A stretch of 56,389 bases of DNA from a virus (lineage: Duplodnaviria; Caudoviricetes), in the IMG/VR virus record IMGVR_UViG_3300035183_000021, positions 1 to 56,389 of that record, one strand, 5' to 3'. The stretch's first letter is position 1. Every line of letters begins with the position of its first letter. This document shows positions 26,228 to 34,198 of this stretch, piece by piece. Below the pieces are notes generated by a model. That model had not been told where the DNA came from and did not search any database. It saw only the letters and a program-made list of their open reading frames with translations. The position numbers and the translations under genes were made by a program.

Positions 26228-29200
26228 ATGGCCAAGGCAGGACTTTCCTTCGCTAACCCTTTCATGGAAAAGATGAATGTGGGGGAGATGCCGAACCCCT
26301 ATGATTCATTTACTCCACTCACTCCTCCCGCGAATATCGGCCTAGGGAACCTAGGTCCTTCTCTTGCTGACATGGCGGCACTAGGGGAGGCGCTTACCAA
26401 GCAAAGCCAGTTCACTATGCCGGAGATGCGCCAGCCGACTGTTACTCCTAGTCCGGCTATTGCATACAGCCCGTCTCGCAATGAACTGTTTGTTCAAGGT
26501 GTTACATTCCCCGTTGATGATGCAGCAACGGCTCTAAAAACCGAAAGCCTACTGAACAACCCAAGCACTGGAATTCCAGCAGGGGGCGACTGGCAGCCAT
26601 TAGATGTAAACGCATATCGGCAGTGGCTAGGAACTATCCGCAATCCAAGTCTTGGAAACTTATTTGCTAAAAACTTCGGGCGTGGTGTTGATGAGCTACA
26701 GATGCTTGGTGGCCGCTTCCTCCAGTGGTTGGGAGCTGAAAACTTAGGCAGCCGCATTGTCAAGGCGCAAGAAGAAGACCTCGCCCGCACTGCGCCGTTT
26801 GATCGTCGGTTTGCCGATATTAACTCTGGTCGTGATGCTGTTGAGTGGTTCGTAGCCAACCTCGCCCAACAAGGACCTAACCTGCTTGAATCAATCGCCA
26901 CAGCTCTCGGTTCGTTTGCTATCGGTACGGCTGCGGGTGGTCCACTTGTAGGGGCAGGTGCCGCGTTGGCGGGGCTTGCAGGAAAGTCCGCGTTCAAGCA
27001 AGCCGTTACCGCTGCGGCGCGGAAATACGCGGCTGGCGAAACGCTCAACGCCGCCGAATATAAATTACTCCGTGAAGCTGCTGGGCTAGCAGGCGTAGCC
27101 GCTGGAATGACGGCGCATAACGTCGGTATAGGTATTGCCGATACCTATGGTGAATTACGAGAGCAAGGAGCCAGCGCTGACGATAATACCGCCCGTTTGA
27201 AGGCTCTCGCTTGGTCTATGCCCTACGGCGCGTTAGAACTCCTACCTGAGTTCGCACTGGCTGCACGTGTATTTGGTAATGTGCTAGCTCGCTCCGCGCT
27301 CCCTGCTGGTACCTCCCTCTTACGCCGTGGCGCTGAAATGGCGCGTCGTGCTGGTGTCGGGCTTACTGTGGGTGGTGCTGCTGAAGGTACTGTAGAACTA
27401 GGACAAGAAGCTATTCTGCTGAAGGCTTCGGACCAGGATTTCTCGTCACCCGAGAACATCAATCGTTTGGTTGAATCGTTTGCTGCGGGCTTCGGTGTGG
27501 GTGGCCCCATTGGTGCTGCTGCTCACTTGCGCAGTAACCATCCTACGAACTTGCTAAATCCTGCTCAATCGCCTGAGCCGCCTACTGGTCGTAATTTGAT
27601 CGTACCCCCAGGGAATAGCCCGACTCCGAGCGCAGGTCCTAGTACTGCGGTACAGCCGTACTATACCCCTGCGACCTCAATAGAGGTAATGCCTTCCCCT
27701 CCTGAACAACTGACTGGTCCTCTTACTGCCCCGCAGCTTCCGGCCCCTGTTTCGCCGGTGGAACCGATGGGCGGCCCACAGATTATGGTAACGCCAGAAG
27801 GCGTAGCTTATCCCGATCAAATGCTGCGCCAGCACGGCAACGTCCCTCCCAGCGCACCTGGTACCCAAGGTGTGCTCAACATCTTCGGTGGGCAGATTTC
27901 TGCGCAAGAACTAGCTTCGCGGATGCAACCAACTGTTTTTGAGAATCAATCTCCAACGTTAACTCAGACAGTGGTAACTGATCCGCGTCAAGGAGCGCTT
28001 CAGTTTTCGGAACCTGTATCTACTGAGCAATTCAACACTCAGCAAACGCAAATACAACAGCAGGTTCCCATTCAGCAACAACTTGACGTACTTGCACAGC
28101 AACAAGCGCTTGCGCCCCAGGAACAAGAAATAGACAGCGCTTCGATGCCGATGCGCCAAGTGGGGCCAACGCAGCCTGTGCAATTACCTCTATTCTCGCG
28201 CCGCCAGGCTCCTCGTCCGAGCCGTGCAGAAGGGTTGCGTCGTGGTATTGGTACGAGGCTGGTAGAACCCACTATCGAAACCCCGCAAACAGTGGTTTCG
28301 TCTCCTACGCAGCTTCCGCTGTTCACCCAAGAAGGTGAACCGTCTCTCCCCGCGCTTCGTGCTGCGGGGGTAAAAACCAAACTGCCGCCTACACCGCTTG
28401 CGCAACCGAGTACCAAACAACGTTCCAAGCGGGGGCTCAAAAAGCAGGCTGGTGTCGCTGAAGTCAATATTGTTCCGCAGGAGGTCCCCTATGCCATTCA
28501 AGAGCAAAGCCCAACGCCGATTCCTGCACGCCAAGTACCCGAAACTGGCAATGGAGTGGGAGCGGAAATACCCACCGAGCAAAAACCTGCCAGAAAGGGT
28601 GAGGCCCTCAAAACAAAAGCCAAAGAGCGGCAAGTAGCGCCCGAAGCTCCGCCTGCGGCGGTAGTGCTGAAGAAAGGTCAACCGACTGAGACGAAGCAAG
28701 CTGCGCCTGCGGCAGAAGCACTGAAGAAAGGTCAACCGACTGAGACGAAGCAAGCTGCGCCTGCGGCAGAAACACTGAGGAAAGGACGGCGTACTAGCAC
28801 AAAGCAGACTACGCCTAAGGCTGAGCCTTTGAAAAAAGGCCAATCCGCCACCATGACGAGGGAAGAGCAGCTTGCTGAGGCTGGCCGACAGTGGGAAGAG
28901 TACGCAGACCCCGACACTCAGCCGAAGTGGGCCGAACTCACCAATGAACAAAAAGAGCAGTGGCGGAAAATTGTTGTTGACGAGCGTAAGCCTACCATTG
29001 CTGCGGCTGAGGAAATCGCCCCGCCGAAGAAACCGGAAGCAGTAAGAACTACTGCACAGGCTGAACAGACTGCGGAAACGGTTTCTCCCAAAGAGGAATC
29101 TGAACCCACACCAGCCAAGATACTAGAGGATGAGATCGCCGCCGCAGAGGAAGCTACGGACATTCGCACGTTTAAGGATGCCATTCAGACTGTCATCCAC

Positions 29201-32200
29201 TACGCTTTCTTTGCTGGCGAAGACACCAATGTCAAGAAGTTGGCGGACAGGGCTCGTGCCTTCCTTAACAATACGCAGTTCTCCGATACGCAGCAAGCTG
29301 CGATGGATGAGGCATTCCTGGAGGCGGCGAACTATGAGACGCAGCTTGAGGCTGTGTACAAGGGCGGTTCTCGTAAAGGGCAGATGAAGCCTTGGTTCTC
29401 CTATGCTGTGTCTCGTGGGCTACTGCCTAGCATCAAGGCGCGCATTATCAATCTGCCTTCAGAATACAAGACGCAGATGGAAGCGAAGTCTGTGGCAAGC
29501 GAACAGGCTCCGACCAAATCTACTGAATCTAGCATTGAAAAAATAACGGAAACGCCTGAAGCATTATTGGGTGAACTGATCAACGACCTCATTACTCGTG
29601 TTCGTGAGTACGACAGCCTAAAGAAAAAAGTTGCTTTTCGTGGCAAAACTTATACCAACCTAGTGGCGCTTGCCAAAGAACTCTACGCTAAGACAAGCGA
29701 ACAAGGAAAGAACTACATCGTCCGTGGTCATAAGCTACGTGAGTACTTCAAAGCTGACGGCTCTCCGAAACTGCTCAAGTCCGACGAGCGGTATATCATC
29801 ACTACCCAAGAGCTAACTACTGAGCAACAGCGCGCGTTGGAGCGAGAACAGAAAGCTGAAGCAAAAGCGATAGCGGCAGAATATTTGATCGCTGAACGTG
29901 AACGCGCGCGTCTTGAACAGGAAGGATTTAAGGTCGAAGACGCTTGGGATGATCCCGACGGTATGTTCTATCGGGATAATGGGACTGAGATCAAATCTAC
30001 GATCCCCCCCGGTCGGGTGCGTTTGTTGGTCAAGAGCTTCCTAAACAAGCTACGTATCAAGCCTAACGTATACATCTACGCCAACGTCGCTGATCTCAAA
30101 CGCCGCAACCCTGACTTGTATCGCCGTGCCGCTACTGCCCGCAAAGAGGGGGACTTCGACACAACCAACGCAGTGGGCTATTCGTTCGGTCCCAACGTAA
30201 TCATCTTCACGGATTTCGTTCGTACCGAGCAGCAGCTCAAGTTCGTCCTGGCACATGAAACGTTAGGGCACTTCGGCTTTAGAAGCATCGTATCCAAGAA
30301 AGACCTAGACGCGGTGCTTAATCGCATCTACAACGCTGATCCAGATATACAGGCGGCAGTGGACGCGATGGTCACCAATCGCGGCATGTCCAAACTGGAA
30401 GCAATTGAAGAATATCTGGCCGACAATGCCGCTGACCTGGATACGTCCATCATTGCCCGTATCTGGAATGTAGTGAAGAACTTCCTCAACAAGCTAGGGT
30501 TCACGTTCCAGGACGACGAGGCTCGCTACTTTATCAATCTGGCGCGCAAGTACGTGCGCCGGGGCGATGTGGGGCACTTCGTCAATGCTCGGTCCATCGT
30601 TGGCGATCTCGAAGCACTCAGACAAGATCAGATCGCCGGTCGCTATGCTCGGGTCTCCGCTGGAGATATGGGGTCGCGGCTATTCGCCGCCGGGGCGCTC
30701 AACCGTCGCTTTAGGAATACGGGCGGCCTCTATGGCGCGATGGAAGCCTTCGCTAAGGGGGTGTTCGGTGCTCGTCATGATGTGCCCGGCGTTGTTGCGC
30801 GCCTCCTTGAACAGGTCCAAACGCTGGATCACAAGGCTCGTCGTAGCTACGGTCTGAACCAAATCTACCGTCTTCTCGAAAAACAACAACATTTTGCTCG
30901 GGCGCTGCTGTCCAAATACCAGCGAATGACCGCTTTCACCCACTCGGTTGACCTGGGCTTCCTGAAGAAAGGCGTGACCGAGGCTGAGAAAGAACGCGCT
31001 GGTGAACTGCTAGCTCGTGCTGCGTTACTCCGTTCCGCGCAGGCTACTGATGAACTGATCAAGTCCTTTGGTCCACTAGTCACTGTGGACGACATGGGTA
31101 ATGTGATTGTTGACCCAGCCGTCCGCGCAGCTATTGAGCGTGCTGGTTTCGTCACTGCCGAGGAATTCCGCAAGGGCTTCGATATTACTTACTCAGACGG
31201 TAGCACGGTCCACTTCCAATACGACGTGGATGAAAACAGCCCTGAGTGGAAGGTTTATCTCGAAATACGCAATGCCGTAAACGAAGCCGCCATCGACCTG
31301 ATGCTATCTAACTACGAAGCCGCACAGGCCGAAACTAAGCGCGTGCTCAATGACCTGAACGCTAAGCGCCGTGGTACCAACGTCTTTACGGCTGAAGACC
31401 TTGCCGCTATCCGCAAGGTTGCTGCGATGTACCAGGCCAAGCGCTATGCAGGCAGTAGCGTGGCGAATGCTGGTGTGGAAATTAAGAGACAGGCTGAGAA
31501 AGACTCCGAGGAATTCCTGATTGCCTTTGGTCGTGCCTTGTTTAACGACGATGTGTTTGCAGCATGGATGAAAGACCCCAATGCCAAGCCCGCCATCGTC
31601 AAGGACATGGAGGAATTTCTCAAAGCTGAATACGACGACATCCGCGCTCAACTCCCGAGCCTGCGGGCCAAGGTCAAGAGCGAAGAGCAGTCGTTCCAGA
31701 TACAGAAAGCTATCCGCGACATATTCCTGTTTGATCTTCAGTCCAAGAACGCTGACTACTACGCCAAACGCACAATCCTTGGTTCCTACGTGCCGTTCTC
31801 TCGCCGTGGGTTTGAGCAGGTAAAACTGGTAGCGGTCGATGCTCGCGGAAATCCGGTAGCGTTGGACCCCAATATTCGCTCCGCGTTGCCCTACTTCCAG
31901 TTCAACTCTCGCCGCGAGGCTATGGCTGTTGCGGAAGAATTGGACAAGATATTTGGTGGTGACAACGAGTTCGTTCTGCTAGATGAAAACGGTAGCGAGG
32001 TTACTGTTCGTCTGAAAGCTGAAGTATCGCGTACCCGCCAGTCGCCTGACCTGAGCGAGGCTGTGAACTTCAACGAGTTCGTGTATGTGCTCAATCGTTT
32101 GAATGTGAATCTCTCGCCAGAAGCGCGGGAGCGAATCATCACTACTCTGACAGCTCAGAACGCCCGTGCTCGCCACAATTTGCAGCGCTCCGGTACCGAA

Positions 32201-34198
32201 GGGTGGGACAAAGATGTCGTGCGTTCCGTGTCTGAGTATCTGGAAACTACGGCCCATGTCGCTGCCAAGAAGCTGTTCCGTCACCGTCTTGACGATATTC
32301 TGTTGAACGACAGCTATTGGTTGGGGGACGACCAAAAACTGGCTGATTTGAAGGCTGCCGTCGAAAATGCCCAGACGGATGGGGAACGCGCCCGCGCCCA
32401 GCGTGCGTATGATGAATACGCCTATATGTATCGCTACATGAAAGGCGCGGCTGGGGAAAACACTGTTGTAATCGACGGTAAGGAAGTACCTACTCTCGGT
32501 CGTGGTGAAGACTACCGGGAAGAAGCCAAGCAAGTGCTCCGCTGGTATAGCGAGACGACCAACATCGCTGACTCGACCGAAGACCTTTTGTCGGGTGAAG
32601 TCGGTTCCAGACTCAAGCTCTTGACAGTGTTGATGCAATTGGGTGGTTCAGTCGCCACAGCCGTGGTTAACCTCTCGTCGTTAGTTACCCATGCACTTCC
32701 CTATCTGGCGTACTACAACCCGACTCGTGGATTCGGTGGGGGCTATGGTGAAGCCAAAGCCGCAGCCGCTTTGTGGAAAGCGGCTAAGGATGTGAAGAAT
32801 TTCAAACTGGCTGACCCCGCGTTCCTCGAACAAATACTACGTAACGGCACTTACGAGCGTTATGGGTTAACTGAAGACGAGGCTCAGTTCCTACTCGCCC
32901 AGACCGAAGAAGGTACCCTGCAAGCGGCTCAGTTCAACGCCCTGGTGGGCACCGCGCGTGGTAAGGTGTTCAACAACAAAGCGCAGGCTGCCGTTCAGGC
33001 GTGGATGTCCATGTTCTCCTACACCGAGCAGTTCAACCGCCGTGTTACGGCACTGGCTGCATATCGGTTAGAGAAGGACCGTCTCCGTGCGCAGGGTGTG
33101 ACAGACGAACAGCAACTTATTGACGCAGCTACCGAAGCCGCGCGCGTGGCCGTAAACACCTCGCAGGGTGAATACGCCATGTACAACCGCCCAGAGATGG
33201 CGCGCGGTAATGTGTTGCAATACGTCTTCATGTACAAGCAGTTCGTCATAATCACGGTGCAGTTGCTGCGGTCACTACCGCCTAAAGGCCAATTGCTCAT
33301 GCTGGGCTTTCTACTGTTGACTTCGGGATTGCGCGGACTGCCCTTCGCCGAAGACATCTTCGACATCGTAGATACCATCGCCCAGAAGCTGGGCCTGAAG
33401 ATGGCAAGCGTGGAGAAGGAGATCACCGAATGGCTAGACGCCGTTGCCCCTGGAATGACACCGTATGTGATGCGCGGCCTGCTTGACCGGGTGACTAGCG
33501 CTACGATTTCCACCCGGATGGGTATGGGCGATTTGGTGCCGCTAACAGGGGCGTTCAAAGCAGGTGCCGATCCGGCGAAAGAAATGGCCAACTTCGCGGG
33601 TCCAGTATTCGGGGGTATCTCTGGGCTGATCGGTATGGCGGGTAGCCTTGCTAGGTATGGCGCTGAAGCGATTGGCCTCCGAGACGACGTAACCTCGTTT
33701 AGCAGCATCATGCGCAATTCGCCTATTGCGGCTGTGCAGGCTATTGCCGACGGGCTTGCGTATCTCGACAGTGGGATGATTACCAACAACCGTGGACAGG
33801 TCATCTCCCGCGAAGCTCCGTATCATGTCATTCTTGCCCGGATGTTGGGCTTCTACCCTGCCATTGCTACAGAGCAGAACGACATCGTGCGCCTCTCCAA
33901 AGACGTAGCGAACTACGCTAAGGCGATTAAAGCAGAATTCGTTTCTGCATACGTGCAAGCCTCGCTCAATGGGGATAATGAACGTATGCAGAAAATCATC
34001 GCCGCCGTCGATCAATGGAATCGAGACGCCGAAGGCACTGGTCTGGAAATCAGCACATTCGTGCGGTCAGCTAACCGGGCCGCGTTGGAAGCGTCCCGTC
34101 CTACGGCGTTGCGGTATCTTAAAGCTGCACCGAAGCACGTGCGTCCCGAGACAGAGGAGCTACTCCGAATCCACGGGCTCGCAGACGAGATCAATTAA
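26228..34198 (+). CDS. Giant (2656 aa) ejected/polyvalent protein with zincin-like motif
   Basis: 'VLAHETLGH...AIEEYLAD' metallopeptidase-like motif, 'YVPFSRRG' (PLxRFG-like) and a helical C-terminal region; last gene of the structural arm. Confidence 0.75.
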   Translation: MAKAGLSFANPFMEKMNVGEMPNPYDSFTPLTPPANIGLGNLGPSLADMAALGEALTKQSQFTMPEMRQPTVTPSPAIAYSPSRNELFVQGVTFPVDDAATALKTESLLNNPSTGIPAGGDWQPLDVNAYRQWLGTIRNPSLGNLFAKNFGRGVDELQMLGGRFLQWLGAENLGSRIVKAQEEDLARTAPFDRRFADINSGRDAVEWFVANLAQQGPNLLESIATALGSFAIGTAAGGPLVGAGAALAGLAGKSAFKQAVTAAARKYAAGETLNAAEYKLLREAAGLAGVAAGMTAHNVGIGIADTYGELREQGASADDNTARLKALAWSMPYGALELLPEFALAARVFGNVLARSALPAGTSLLRRGAEMARRAGVGLTVGGAAEGTVELGQEAILLKASDQDFSSPENINRLVESFAAGFGVGGPIGAAAHLRSNHPTNLLNPAQSPEPPTGRNLIVPPGNSPTPSAGPSTAVQPYYTPATSIEVMPSPPEQLTGPLTAPQLPAPVSPVEPMGGPQIMVTPEGVAYPDQMLRQHGNVPPSAPGTQGVLNIFGGQISAQELASRMQPTVFENQSPTLTQTVVTDPRQGALQFSEPVSTEQFNTQQTQIQQQVPIQQQLDVLAQQQALAPQEQEIDSASMPMRQVGPTQPVQLPLFSRRQAPRPSRAEGLRRGIGTRLVEPTIETPQTVVSSPTQLPLFTQEGEPSLPALRAAGVKTKLPPTPLAQPSTKQRSKRGLKKQAGVAEVNIVPQEVPYAIQEQSPTPIPARQVPETGNGVGAEIPTEQKPARKGEALKTKAKERQVAPEAPPAAVVLKKGQPTETKQAAPAAEALKKGQPTETKQAAPAAETLRKGRRTSTKQTTPKAEPLKKGQSATMTREEQLAEAGRQWEEYADPDTQPKWAELTNEQKEQWRKIVVDERKPTIAAAEEIAPPKKPEAVRTTAQAEQTAETVSPKEESEPTPAKILEDEIAAAEEATDIRTFKDAIQTVIHYAFFAGEDTNVKKLADRARAFLNNTQFSDTQQAAMDEAFLEAANYETQLEAVYKGGSRKGQMKPWFSYAVSRGLLPSIKARIINLPSEYKTQMEAKSVASEQAPTKSTESSIEKITETPEALLGELINDLITRVREYDSLKKKVAFRGKTYTNLVALAKELYAKTSEQGKNYIVRGHKLREYFKADGSPKLLKSDERYIITTQELTTEQQRALEREQKAEAKAIAAEYLIAERERARLEQEGFKVEDAWDDPDGMFYRDNGTEIKSTIPPGRVRLLVKSFLNKLRIKPNVYIYANVADLKRRNPDLYRRAATARKEGDFDTTNAVGYSFGPNVIIFTDFVRTEQQLKFVLAHETLGHFGFRSIVSKKDLDAVLNRIYNADPDIQAAVDAMVTNRGMSKLEAIEEYLADNAADLDTSIIARIWNVVKNFLNKLGFTFQDDEARYFINLARKYVRRGDVGHFVNARSIVGDLEALRQDQIAGRYARVSAGDMGSRLFAAGALNRRFRNTGGLYGAMEAFAKGVFGARHDVPGVVARLLEQVQTLDHKARRSYGLNQIYRLLEKQQHFARALLSKYQRMTAFTHSVDLGFLKKGVTEAEKERAGELLARAALLRSAQATDELIKSFGPLVTVDDMGNVIVDPAVRAAIERAGFVTAEEFRKGFDITYSDGSTVHFQYDVDENSPEWKVYLEIRNAVNEAAIDLMLSNYEAAQAETKRVLNDLNAKRRGTNVFTAEDLAAIRKVAAMYQAKRYAGSSVANAGVEIKRQAEKDSEEFLIAFGRALFNDDVFAAWMKDPNAKPAIVKDMEEFLKAEYDDIRAQLPSLRAKVKSEEQSFQIQKAIRDIFLFDLQSKNADYYAKRTILGSYVPFSRRGFEQVKLVAVDARGNPVALDPNIRSALPYFQFNSRREAMAVAEELDKIFGGDNEFVLLDENGSEVTVRLKAEVSRTRQSPDLSEAVNFNEFVYVLNRLNVNLSPEARERIITTLTAQNARARHNLQRSGTEGWDKDVVRSVSEYLETTAHVAAKKLFRHRLDDILLNDSYWLGDDQKLADLKAAVENAQTDGERARAQRAYDEYAYMYRYMKGAAGENTVVIDGKEVPTLGRGEDYREEAKQVLRWYSETTNIADSTEDLLSGEVGSRLKLLTVLMQLGGSVATAVVNLSSLVTHALPYLAYYNPTRGFGGGYGEAKAAAALWKAAKDVKNFKLADPAFLEQILRNGTYERYGLTEDEAQFLLAQTEEGTLQAAQFNALVGTARGKVFNNKAQAAVQAWMSMFSYTEQFNRRVTALAAYRLEKDRLRAQGVTDEQQLIDAATEAARVAVNTSQGEYAMYNRPEMARGNVLQYVFMYKQFVIITVQLLRSLPPKGQLLMLGFLLLTSGLRGLPFAEDIFDIVDTIAQKLGLKMASVEKEITEWLDAVAPGMTPYVMRGLLDRVTSATISTRMGMGDLVPLTGAFKAGADPAKEMANFAGPVFGGISGLIGMAGSLARYGAEAIGLRDDVTSFSSIMRNSPIAAVQAIADGLAYLDSGMITNNRGQVISREAPYHVILARMLGFYPAIATEQNDIVRLSKDVANYAKAIKAEFVSAYVQASLNGDNERMQKIIAAVDQWNRDAEGTGLEISTFVRSANRAALEASRPTALRYLKAAPKHVRPETEELLRIHGLADEIN
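28491..28637 (+). CDS. 48-aa basic protein overprinted in the +1 frame of the giant gene
   Basis: AGGAGGT 5 nt before the ATG; MPFKSKAQRRFLHAKYPKLAMEWERKYPPSKNLPERV resembles a small phage protein family I recall. Confidence 0.65.
   Translation: MPFKSKAQRRFLHAKYPKLAMEWERKYPPSKNLPERVRPSKQKPKSGK
28667..28771 (+). repeat. 54-bp in-frame tandem duplication (LKKGQPTETKQAAPAAE x2)
   Basis: Identical DNA starting at 28667 and 28721. Confidence 0.9.

What the first reader, a model, noticed from the sequence alone, without database searches (positions are those of the whole stretch)
28479..28637. Hidden 48-aa gene overprinted inside the giant virion protein
Seen: a perfect SD (AGGAGGT) 5 nt before an ATG opens MPFKSKAQRRFLHAKYPKLAMEWERKYPPSKNLPERVRPSKQKPKSGK in the +1 frame, within the disordered linker of the 2656-aa ORF. 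From memory (unverified), 'MPFKSKAQRR...W....P...LPE.V' is a recurrent stand-alone small phage protein. Inference: a real nested gene that gene callers would miss. The host-frame 'YAIQEQS' would be its shadow. It is the third overlapping-gene arrangement in this genome, after the antisense HNH and Rz1.
Basis: partly seen in the sequence, partly recalled or inferred. Interest (0 to 1): 0.7.

Follow-up and report, generated by a model that had tools for sequence, protein, structure and literature searches.

The report
Swappable hidden gene inside giant gene
A real gene for a 48-residue, strongly basic protein is encoded in a second reading frame inside a phage's giant virion-protein gene, at a spot where related phages carry this gene, a different small gene or nothing, and gene finders miss it.

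Summary
AGGAGGT (28479-28485) lies 5 nt before an ATG (28491). This opens a 48-aa ORF ending at 28637, in the +1 frame of the 2656-aa ORF 26228-34198.

The peptide belongs to a very large family of small basic phage proteins that begin MPFKSxAQRR. A profile search found 4617 clusters, with the module always at the N-terminus.

I examined 81 giant-gene records (the window plus 80 relatives). At the same position and in the same +1 frame:
- 31 carry this gene (type A).
- 22 carry an unrelated small basic gene (type B, phrog_2423).
- 12 carry nothing.
- 16 are cut short and cannot be scored.

Codon-position variation shows purifying selection on the nested frame. The host frame is also kept open: free-standing copies have 1-8 stops in that frame.

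On a tree of the giant genes the slot state changes at least 20 times, even between near-identical genes. It therefore behaves as an exchangeable alternate-frame cassette.

The same small gene is also nested in a scaffold-position gene of AT-rich phages, and it sits free between portal and scaffold genes elsewhere.

Eight of 8 nested copies are missing from a collection of 15 billion predicted proteins. Two of 2 free-standing copies are present.

The function is untested. My best guess is a head-associated protein that binds nucleic acid. "Overprinting" as the origin is not supported.

The parts
28479..28485 (+). Shine-Dalgarno sequence AGGAGGT of the nested gene, 5 nt before its ATG
   Evidence: Many real genes of this genome use GGAG-type SDs. 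An SD-like core (GGAG/GAGG/AGGA) lies upstream of 25 of 30 nested type A copies and 20 of 22 type B copies.
28491..28637 (+). Nested gene, type A: a 48-aa basic protein (net charge +12, pI 10.9) in the +1 frame of the giant ORF; the stop TAG is included
   Evidence: The AlphaFold2 model has mean pLDDT 81, helices at 6-15 and 17-26, and an extended basic tail.
26228..34198 (+). Host gene: a 2656-aa giant protein, the last gene of the virion/internal-protein block
   Evidence: phrog_11358 matches at E 5e-50 over residues 2126-2608. The two upstream genes match internal virion proteins. 101 relatives were confirmed in IMG/VR.
28484..28870 (+). Variable linker segment of the host frame that the near relative L088 lacks. 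It holds the nested gene and the repeats after it. The left edge follows the conserved host motif IVP(Q/K)E.
   Evidence: Host-frame alignment; coordinates.
28644..28816 (+). 54-nt tandem repeat, 2.6-2.8 copies, just after the nested stop. It encodes 18-aa repeats (LKKGQPTETKQAAPAAEA) in the host frame.

Best explanation
Shown:
- 28491-28637 is a genuine protein-coding gene embedded out of frame (+1) in the giant virion-protein gene.
- Both frames are under selection. The nested frame carries the amino-acid constraint, and the host frame is kept free of stops.
- The gene occupies a defined slot in a low-complexity linker, about residue 750-1000 of the giant protein. In related phages this slot holds type A, an unrelated small basic gene (type B) or nothing. 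The slot state has changed many times between closely related giant genes.

Inferred:
- Ribosomes start independently at the internal SD and start codon on the late structural mRNA.
- Cassettes are exchanged by recombination. The left junction is at the shared SD/start/'MP(F/L)K' sequence.
- The small gene was captured by, or engulfed in, the host gene rather than born there.

Guess (about 0.35):
- The product is a two-helix hairpin with a Lys/Arg/Pro tail and a net charge of +12.
- It binds nucleic acid or acidic head proteins. It acts in head assembly or as an internal protein that travels with the DNA.
- The basis for this guess is that free-standing and nested copies all sit among portal, scaffold, capsid and internal-protein genes.
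For: Homology
- 10 stand-alone proteins match at E down to 2.4e-8.
- A profile search found 4617 clusters at E <= 1e-3 and 994 at E <= 1e-10. In 150 of 150 listed hits the module lies at or within about 55 residues of the N-terminus.

Conserved position
- Of 81 records, 31 carry type A, 22 type B, none both, 12 neither, and 16 are cut.
- Every hit is on the + strand and in frame +1. Every hit lies inside the giant ORF, except L109, whose start is cut by the locus end.

Selection on the nested frame
- Type A, 29 sequences: pairwise nucleotide differences at nested codon positions 1/2/3 are 0.42/0.31/0.54.
- Amino-acid identity is 0.48 in the nested frame against 0.28 in the host frame. Nested exceeds host in 404 of 406 pairs.
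- Type B, 14 sequences: nested exceeds host in 91 of 91 pairs.
- Control on the conserved HExxH block shows the opposite pattern. Host positions 1/2/3 give 0.30/0.18/0.59, and host exceeds +1 in 231 of 231 pairs.

Host frame kept open
- The host frame has no stop across any of the 52 nested cassettes that could be scored; L109 is cut at the locus end.
- 14 of 14 free-standing copies have 1-8 stops in the equivalent frame.

SD and start codons
- Type A starts: ATG 14, GTG 14, TTG 2 of 30; SD-like core in 25 of 30.

Cassette exchange
- The tree needs at least 20 state changes on 63 tips. None of 200 label shuffles gave so few, so the label is clustered yet far from a single origin.
- L081, L085 and L089 have flanks 80-95% identical around an unalignable block of about 250 nt.
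- L094 (A) and L158/L159 (B) share the identical 18 nt upstream plus GTG.
- The empty slot in L088 joins IVPKE directly to AALKK.

Other hosts and contexts
- Type A is nested in a ~390-420-aa acidic gene between the portal gene and a virion structural protein gene.
- It is free between portal and scaffold genes in L052.

Missed by gene callers
- 8 of 8 nested copies are absent from the predicted-protein collection; 2 of 2 free-standing copies are present.

Charge
- Types A and B both average +12.8.
Against: - There is no expression, ribosome-profiling or proteomic evidence. All relatives are uncultured contigs.
- The two nearest full-length relatives lack type A: L091 has type B and L088 is empty.
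- One copy, L136, has an internal stop.
- 5 of 30 type A copies lack a canonical SD core.
- The frame test used an alignment built on the nested frame, which favours it somewhat. The first 31 columns are gap-free from the start codon.
- The tree is a quick search on one 420-residue block and warns of long branches. Larger mosaic exchanges could inflate the number of changes.
- Nothing tests the function. There is no Pfam family, no solved relative and no structural match.
- The direction of origin, capture versus escape, is not resolved.
Confidence: 0.85

Rival explanations
1. The nested gene is real, but it is an accessory factor rather than an assembly or structural one. It would be a small basic protein packaged and injected with the DNA to counter host defences, in the manner recalled for T4 internal proteins.
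For: - Presence, absence and type change often between near-identical phages, as is typical of accessory genes.
- Two unrelated families with the same size and charge fill the same slot.
- A weak relative of the host gene's C-terminal part is annotated 'DarB-like antirestriction protein' at 25% identity.
- One fused form carries a C-terminal match to 'minor head protein and DNA pilot' at E 3e-5.
Against: - Both families are very widespread and well conserved, with thousands of clusters. Most known narrow-range counter-defence genes are not like this (recalled).
- No PADLOC or anti-defence search was run.
- Nothing tests packaging or injection.
Confidence: 0.3
2. The 48 codons are read through a programmed +1 frameshift from the giant frame. 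This would give a truncated giant protein with a new tail, not a separate protein.
For: In the window the +1 frame is open for 31 codons upstream of the ATG (TTG ORF 28398-28637).
Against: - Conservation begins exactly at the start codon, which has an SD before it.
- In several relatives a +1-frame stop lies 1-5 codons upstream of the start: L001-L004 and L060.
- The family exists as free-standing genes starting at the same Met.
- The local RNA fold is ordinary, z = -0.35.
Confidence: 0.03
3. This is a chance ORF, and its similarity to small proteins is a by-product of constraint on the giant protein or of base composition.
For: Alternate-frame ORFs of this size are common here, and the SD heptamer is not significantly enriched.
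Against: - The host frame is the less conserved one over the cassette, and host third positions vary least there (against the control).
- Homologues occur outside any host gene and inside an unrelated host gene.
- E-values reach 2e-8 for a single sequence and 2e-22 for a profile.
Confidence: 0.02
4. The giant ORF is not read through here. There would be two genes with a small gene between them, and the open host frame would be accidental.
For: The cassette lies in an indel-rich linker between conserved N- and C-terminal parts. In L021 and L015 the small gene lies just downstream of a giant gene.
Against: - The host frame stays open over the cassette in every scorable record, across hosts down to about 30% identity.
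- 14 of 14 free-standing copies have stops in that frame.
- Giants with an empty slot are continuous.
Confidence: 0.02

Closest known systems
Rz1 embedded in Rz (lambda-type spanin genes; recalled, not tested here)
   Same: A small phage gene lies wholly inside a larger gene on the same strand, in the +1 frame, with its own start. Gene callers often miss it.
   Different: Rz1 is a lipoprotein that works with its host gene's product in lysis. Here the product is a soluble, strongly basic protein. The host is a giant virion protein, or a scaffold-position gene. The slot holds alternative, unrelated cassettes or none.
Overprinted genes of phiX174-type phages (E in D, K, B in A). I saw them named only in the introduction of 10.1101/2024.11.07.622342 and the reference list of PMC8227390 (passages).
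   Same: Two proteins are read from two frames of one stretch of DNA, with constraint on both.
   Different: Those genes are regarded as born in place. This small gene has thousands of relatives outside any overlap. It is present, absent or replaced among close relatives of the host gene.
OAFI, engineered 'overlapping, alternate-frame insertion' (bioRxiv 10.1101/2024.11.07.622342; abstract and search passages read)
   Same: [quoted passage not shown] This is the same architecture.
   Different: OAFI is a laboratory design. The passages I read cite no natural case of this kind. Here it appears to be natural, recurrent and exchangeable.
PHROG families phrog_1375 (70 aa, unknown function) and phrog_2423 (52 aa, unknown function)
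   Same: Type B copies match phrog_2423 at E 6e-8 to 4e-19. Long type A relatives match phrog_1375 at E 8e-6 to 7e-4.
   Different: The window's own peptide reaches only E 0.33 against phrog_1375. Neither family has a known function or a recorded nested arrangement.
Small basic virion proteins such as Microviridae protein J or T4 internal proteins (recalled; analogy of properties only)
   Same: Small size, high positive charge, and genes placed among head genes.
   Different: No sequence or fold relation was found. Virion location is untested.

Membership tests
Type A small basic phage protein family (unnamed; MPFKSxAQRR... module) | Module at the extreme N-terminus, starting Met-Pro, with S5, Q8, P17 and L33-P34 invariant and K4, A7 and A20 nearly so | tested here: met
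   Alignment A3 of 72 sequences. The window's peptide has all of these residues. The profile search places the module at or near the N-terminus in all 150 listed hits.
Type A small basic phage protein family (unnamed; MPFKSxAQRR... module) | Significant sequence similarity to members | tested here: met
   phmmer E 2.4e-8 in 5.8 billion sequences. HMM E 2e-22 within the loci set.
Type A small basic phage protein family (unnamed; MPFKSxAQRR... module) | Two-helix core followed by a basic tail, with net positive charge | tested here: met
   AlphaFold2 mean pLDDT 81, helices at 6-15 and 17-26. Net charge +12; family mean +12.8.
phrog_1375 | Significant match to the family HMM | tested here: inconclusive
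   P0001 scores E 0.33. Longer relatives score E 5e-5 to 8e-6 over profile positions 17-46.
Pfam DUF3008 (PF11450), suggested by the protein atlas at score 0.85 | Match to the Pfam HMM | tested here: not met
   0 of 72 members of A3 match at E <= 0.1. P0001 has no Pfam hit at E <= 1.
Fully nested out-of-frame phage genes (the Rz1/Rz kind of arrangement) | Same strand, different frame, wholly inside a longer coding ORF, with its own start signal | tested here: met
Fully nested out-of-frame phage genes (the Rz1/Rz kind of arrangement) | Both frames under selection | tested here: met
   Nested frame. Host frame kept open against 1-8 stops in 14 of 14 free-standing copies.
Genes born by overprinting | The nested frame is younger than, and confined to, the lineage of its host gene | tested here: not met
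   The family occurs free-standing and in unrelated host genes and in 4617 clusters. The slot is empty in 12 relatives and holds type B in 22.
Expressed protein | Evidence of translation, or the peptide itself | not testable with these tools
   No ribosome-profiling or proteomic data are available for this uncultured virus.

The most novel reading that the evidence does not exclude
Small basic-protein genes act as exchangeable alternate-frame cassettes. They live in the +1 frame of permissive linkers of essential virion genes: the giant ejection or internal protein gene, and the scaffold-position gene. Their codons have been chosen so that the host frame stays open. They move between phages by recombination at a shared SD/start junction. 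This would be a natural counterpart of engineered alternate-frame insertion. Embedding would tie the cassette's fate and timing to an essential late gene. Their products would be packaged with the DNA. If so, a whole layer of phage genes is invisible to current annotation.
Probability: 0.4. Interest if true: 0.85.

Novelty: new variant of a known kind. Interest (0 to 1): 0.75.

Why it matters
Out-of-frame nested genes in phages are known from only a handful of cases. Here one is recurrent in dozens of uncultured phages, lies in at least two unrelated host genes, and is interchangeable with a second gene family at the same site.

This finding has three consequences.

1. Standard gene calling has a systematic blind spot. 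Eight of 8 nested copies are absent from a collection of 15 billion predicted proteins.

2. An overlap can arise or spread by capture and exchange of an existing gene, not only by overprinting.

3. It offers a natural system for studying dual-frame coding constraints and internal translation starts. Codon choice here removes the 1-8 stops that free-standing copies carry in the host frame.

It also flags two very large families of small basic phage proteins that have no known function.

Tried and rejected
Searches that gave nothing useful
- Pfam on the peptide and the giant protein: no family.
- Pfam on all 72 type A members: no common family, and DUF3008 matched 0 of 72.
- Pfam on type B and on the ~400-aa hosts: nothing significant.
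- blastn of 27500-29500 against cultured phages: no match.
- tblastn of the peptide against cultured phages: 8 weak partial hits only, E 7e-3 to 8e-2.
- tblastn of the giant C-terminal part: 2 weak hits.
- Sequence search of solved structures with profiles A3 and A4: only spurious hits.
- Foldseek against PDB for both models: best E 5.8 and 2.1.
- VIA-align wide for type A: best Z 2.3.
- BFVD: only uncharacterised members of the same family.
- Protein atlas: unnamed viral clusters.
- 'Longer' protein search: 14 fused forms without annotation. Their C-terminal parts are diverse. DUF5661 reaches Pfam's cutoff in 2 of 10, with a third weaker match below cutoff, and one weak P-loop match.
- Earlier findings of this scan: none.

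Ideas tested and not supported
- Homology between types A and B: hhalign probability 17%, so not shown.
- RNA structure around the start: z = -0.35.
- A third cassette type in the 12 'empty' relatives: none evident.
- L012/L013: the apparent nesting in a 701-aa frame is probably only open frame upstream of a terminase start.

Literature
- No paper contains the N-terminal motif.
- No paper mentions DUF6496 or DUF5661.
- No paper on such nesting turned up in three topic searches.
- Supplementary files were not consulted.

Not run
- Complex prediction, because I make no binding claim.
- Sequencing-run tools, because RNA coverage of a gene inside a transcribed gene would not show translation.
- PADLOC.
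Full report
**1. The observation**

One search shows AGGAGGT at 28479-28485, a 5-nt spacer, ATG at 28491 and TAG at 28635-28637. The ORF lies in the +1 frame of the 2656-aa ORF 26228-34198, starting at host residue 755.

The host frame there reads IVPQEVPYAIQEQS. It sits in a Pro/Ala/Gln/Thr/Glu-rich stretch.

On its own this is not remarkable. The heptamer occurs 9 times against 5.0 expected, and 8 of 100 shuffles do as well. Alternate-frame ORFs of this size are frequent. However, this genome does use GGAG-type Shine-Dalgarno (SD) sequences. Nearly all places where a strong SD precedes an ATG and an ORF of at least 40 aa are real gene starts.

**2. Setting**

The window is a complete 56,389-base virus record. 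The genes before the giant ORF match internal virion proteins, one of them with a transglycosylase part. A replication block lies on the other strand.

The giant protein has no Pfam family. Its C-terminal part matches phrog_11358. No close cultured relative was found.

**3. The peptide belongs to a large family**

- Ten stand-alone proteins of 42-62 aa match at E 2.4e-8 to 4.6e-4. All share M1-R10, P17, A20 and L33-P34.
Of these, 389 were confirmed and 80 loci were kept.
- A profile of 72 members finds 4617 clusters at E <= 1e-3 and 994 at E <= 1e-10 among 1.84 billion representatives.
- In all 150 listed hits the module lies at or close to the N-terminus of proteins 45-575 aa long.
- Longer forms carry varied, mostly unannotated C-terminal parts.
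- No Pfam family covers the module; DUF3008 matched 0 of 72. No solved structure or fold match was found.
- The model is a two-helix hairpin (residues 6-15 and 17-26, mean pLDDT 81) with an extended basic tail. The net charge is +12.
- In species-representative genomes only 68 loci were found, all in metagenome-assembled records.

**4. Do relatives of the giant gene keep it?**

I aligned the giant protein with two homologous host ORFs. With that alignment I fetched 80 of 101 confirmed relatives, at 29-83% identity. HMM searches in six frames over the window plus these 80 records gave:

| Slot state | Records |
|---|---|
| Type A | 31 |
| Type B (second small ORF) | 22 |
| Both | 0 |
| Neither, although the N-terminal part of the giant gene is present | 12 |
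| Cut short, no hit | 16 |

Every hit is on the + strand and in frame +1. Every hit lies inside the giant ORF at about residue 690-1165 in records with the N-terminus in the locus. The one exception is L109, whose start is cut by the locus end.

No free-standing copy was seen in these loci.

Type B (MPLKKGSSNKVVS...KQAVAxxLS, 48-61 aa) was found by listing +1 ORFs in the records without type A. It matches phrog_2423 at E down to 4e-19. It has more than 5000 relatives, some in bacterial metagenome bins. One of the 120 listed carries PF20106. It models as another two-helix hairpin. Homology to type A is not shown. Both types average +12.8 net charge.

Start codons and SD-like cores:

| Type | ATG | GTG | TTG | Copies | SD-like core |
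|---|---|---|---|---|---|
| A | 14 | 14 | 2 | 30 | 25 |
| B | 10 | 12 | 0 | 22 | 20 |

One type A copy, in L136, has an internal stop.

**5. Which frame is selected?**

I used 29 type A copies. Near-duplicates, the cut copy and the stop-bearing copy were left out.

- Mean pairwise nucleotide difference at nested codon positions 1/2/3 is 0.42/0.31/0.54. So the host's third position varies least.
- Amino-acid identity is 0.48 in the nested frame against 0.28 in the host frame. Nested is higher in 404 of 406 pairs.
- For 14 of the 22 type B copies the figures are 0.29/0.22/0.47, 0.70 against 0.42, and 91 of 91 pairs.
- A control on the conserved HExxH block of the same giants gives the normal pattern: 0.30/0.18/0.59 at host positions 1/2/3, with host identity higher in 231 of 231 pairs.

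The host frame is also constrained. It has no stop across any scorable nested cassette, whereas 14 of 14 free-standing copies have 1-8 stops in the equivalent frame. So both frames are read, and nested copies use codons that avoid stops in the host frame.

**6. The slot behaves as a cassette**

In the host-frame alignment the near relative L088 joins IVPKE directly to AALKK. The window (type A) and L091 (type B) carry their cassettes at exactly that point.

I built a quick maximum-likelihood tree of a 420-residue block for 63 of the 65 scorable giants. Two lacked the block.

- The window's nearest neighbours are L091 (type B, 81% identity) and L088 (empty).
- The three states need at least 20 changes.
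- Strongly supported branches alone force at least 10 changes for type A.
- The program warns of long branches.

L081 (A), L085 (B) and L089 (empty) have flanks 80-95% identical around an unalignable stretch of about 250 nt that begins at the shared SD. L094 (A) and L158/L159 (B) have the identical 18 nt upstream plus GTG.

**7. Other contexts of type A**

In 63 of the 80 first-scan loci I could locate the motif:

| Context | Loci |
|---|---|
| Nested in same-strand ORFs of at least 1248 aa | 8 |
| Nested in ORFs of 383-423 aa | 13 |
| Within open frame upstream of a terminase | 2 |
| N-termini of 192-198-aa proteins | 3 |
| No overlapping ORF of at least 100 aa | 12 |
| Overlapping only short or doubtful frames | 25 |

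I examined 8 of the 13 loci with ~400-aa hosts. They have 32-37% GC. The host ATG lies about 25-55 codons upstream of the nested ATG. The host N-terminus is conserved, and the host frame over the cassette reads (D/N)AVQEQST(D/E), the same shadow as in the window.

In L020 this host gene lies between the portal gene and a virion structural protein gene, which is the position of a scaffold gene. In L052 the small gene is free between portal and scaffold genes, followed by the major head gene. In L021 and L015 it follows a giant gene directly.

Among the 68 genome-bin loci, 4 copies lie in ORFs of at least 1000 aa, 9 in ORFs of 300-999 aa, and 34 are free.

**8. Annotation blind spot**

An exact look-up in about 15 billion predicted proteins finds none of 8 nested copies, including the window's. 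It finds both of 2 free-standing copies.

**9. Interpretation**

The nested gene is real and selected. The arrangement is a dual-coding cassette in a permissive linker, exchanged among phages.

Overprinting as the origin is unlikely, for three reasons:
- the small family is much wider than its hosts;
- the slot can be empty;
- the host reading is the weakly conserved one.

Whether the family was captured by the host genes or escaped from them is open.

Function is inferred only from size, charge and neighbourhood. My guess is a head-associated protein that binds nucleic acid or acidic proteins (about 0.35). An injected accessory protein is a live alternative. I judge a frameshift product, a chance ORF and a split host gene unlikely (see Rival explanations).

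**10. Literature**

No paper holds the motif. No paper mentions DUF6496 or DUF5661. No paper describes this nesting.

The nearest concept is the engineered 'overlapping, alternate-frame insertion' (10.1101/2024.11.07.622342; abstract and passages read). A term search of a review of viral overlapping genes found no occurrence of 'insertion' (PMC8227390, find only). Supplements were not seen.

Noticed in passing
window 28644-28816: A 54-nt tandem repeat (2.6-2.8 copies, 86-92% matches) lies directly after the nested stop. It encodes 18-aa repeats in the giant protein's linker. The near relatives L088 and L091 lack it.
   Followed up: partly
window 30248-30271: The giant protein carries a conserved LAHETLGH (HExxH) motif, present in all 22 relatives examined and invariant in the three-way alignment. 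This suggests a zincin-like metallopeptidase domain in an otherwise unannotated giant protein.
   Followed up: partly
L091:12297-12473 and 21 other loci: A second nested gene family, type B (phrog_2423; one relative flagged PF20106/DUF6496), occupies the same +1 slot in 22 relatives. It has more than 5000 relatives, including some in bacterial metagenome bins.
   Followed up: yes
L020:6001-6123 inside L020:5877-7061: In AT-rich phages, type A is nested in the 5' part of a ~394-aa acidic gene lying between the portal gene and a virion structural protein gene, which is the scaffold position.
   Followed up: partly
L136:8694 onward: This nested type A copy has an in-frame stop after residue 20, while the near-identical L139 copy is intact. 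It could be a decaying copy or a sequencing error.
   Followed up: no
P0118, P0142, P0072, P0064, P0045: The type A module is fused at the N-terminus to varied C-terminal parts. These include DUF5661, a weak P-loop match, and a stretch matching 'minor head protein and DNA pilot'.
   Followed up: partly
L093:10001-19489: The tblastn match to the giant protein starts about 3.8 kb before the longest ORF (1897 aa). The giant gene may be split or interrupted in this relative.
   Followed up: no
L117, giant residues about 800-1100: This relative has an empty slot. It carries a long in-frame insertion with its own HExxH-like motif (VAHEIAH) in the linker region.
   Followed up: no
   Followed up: no
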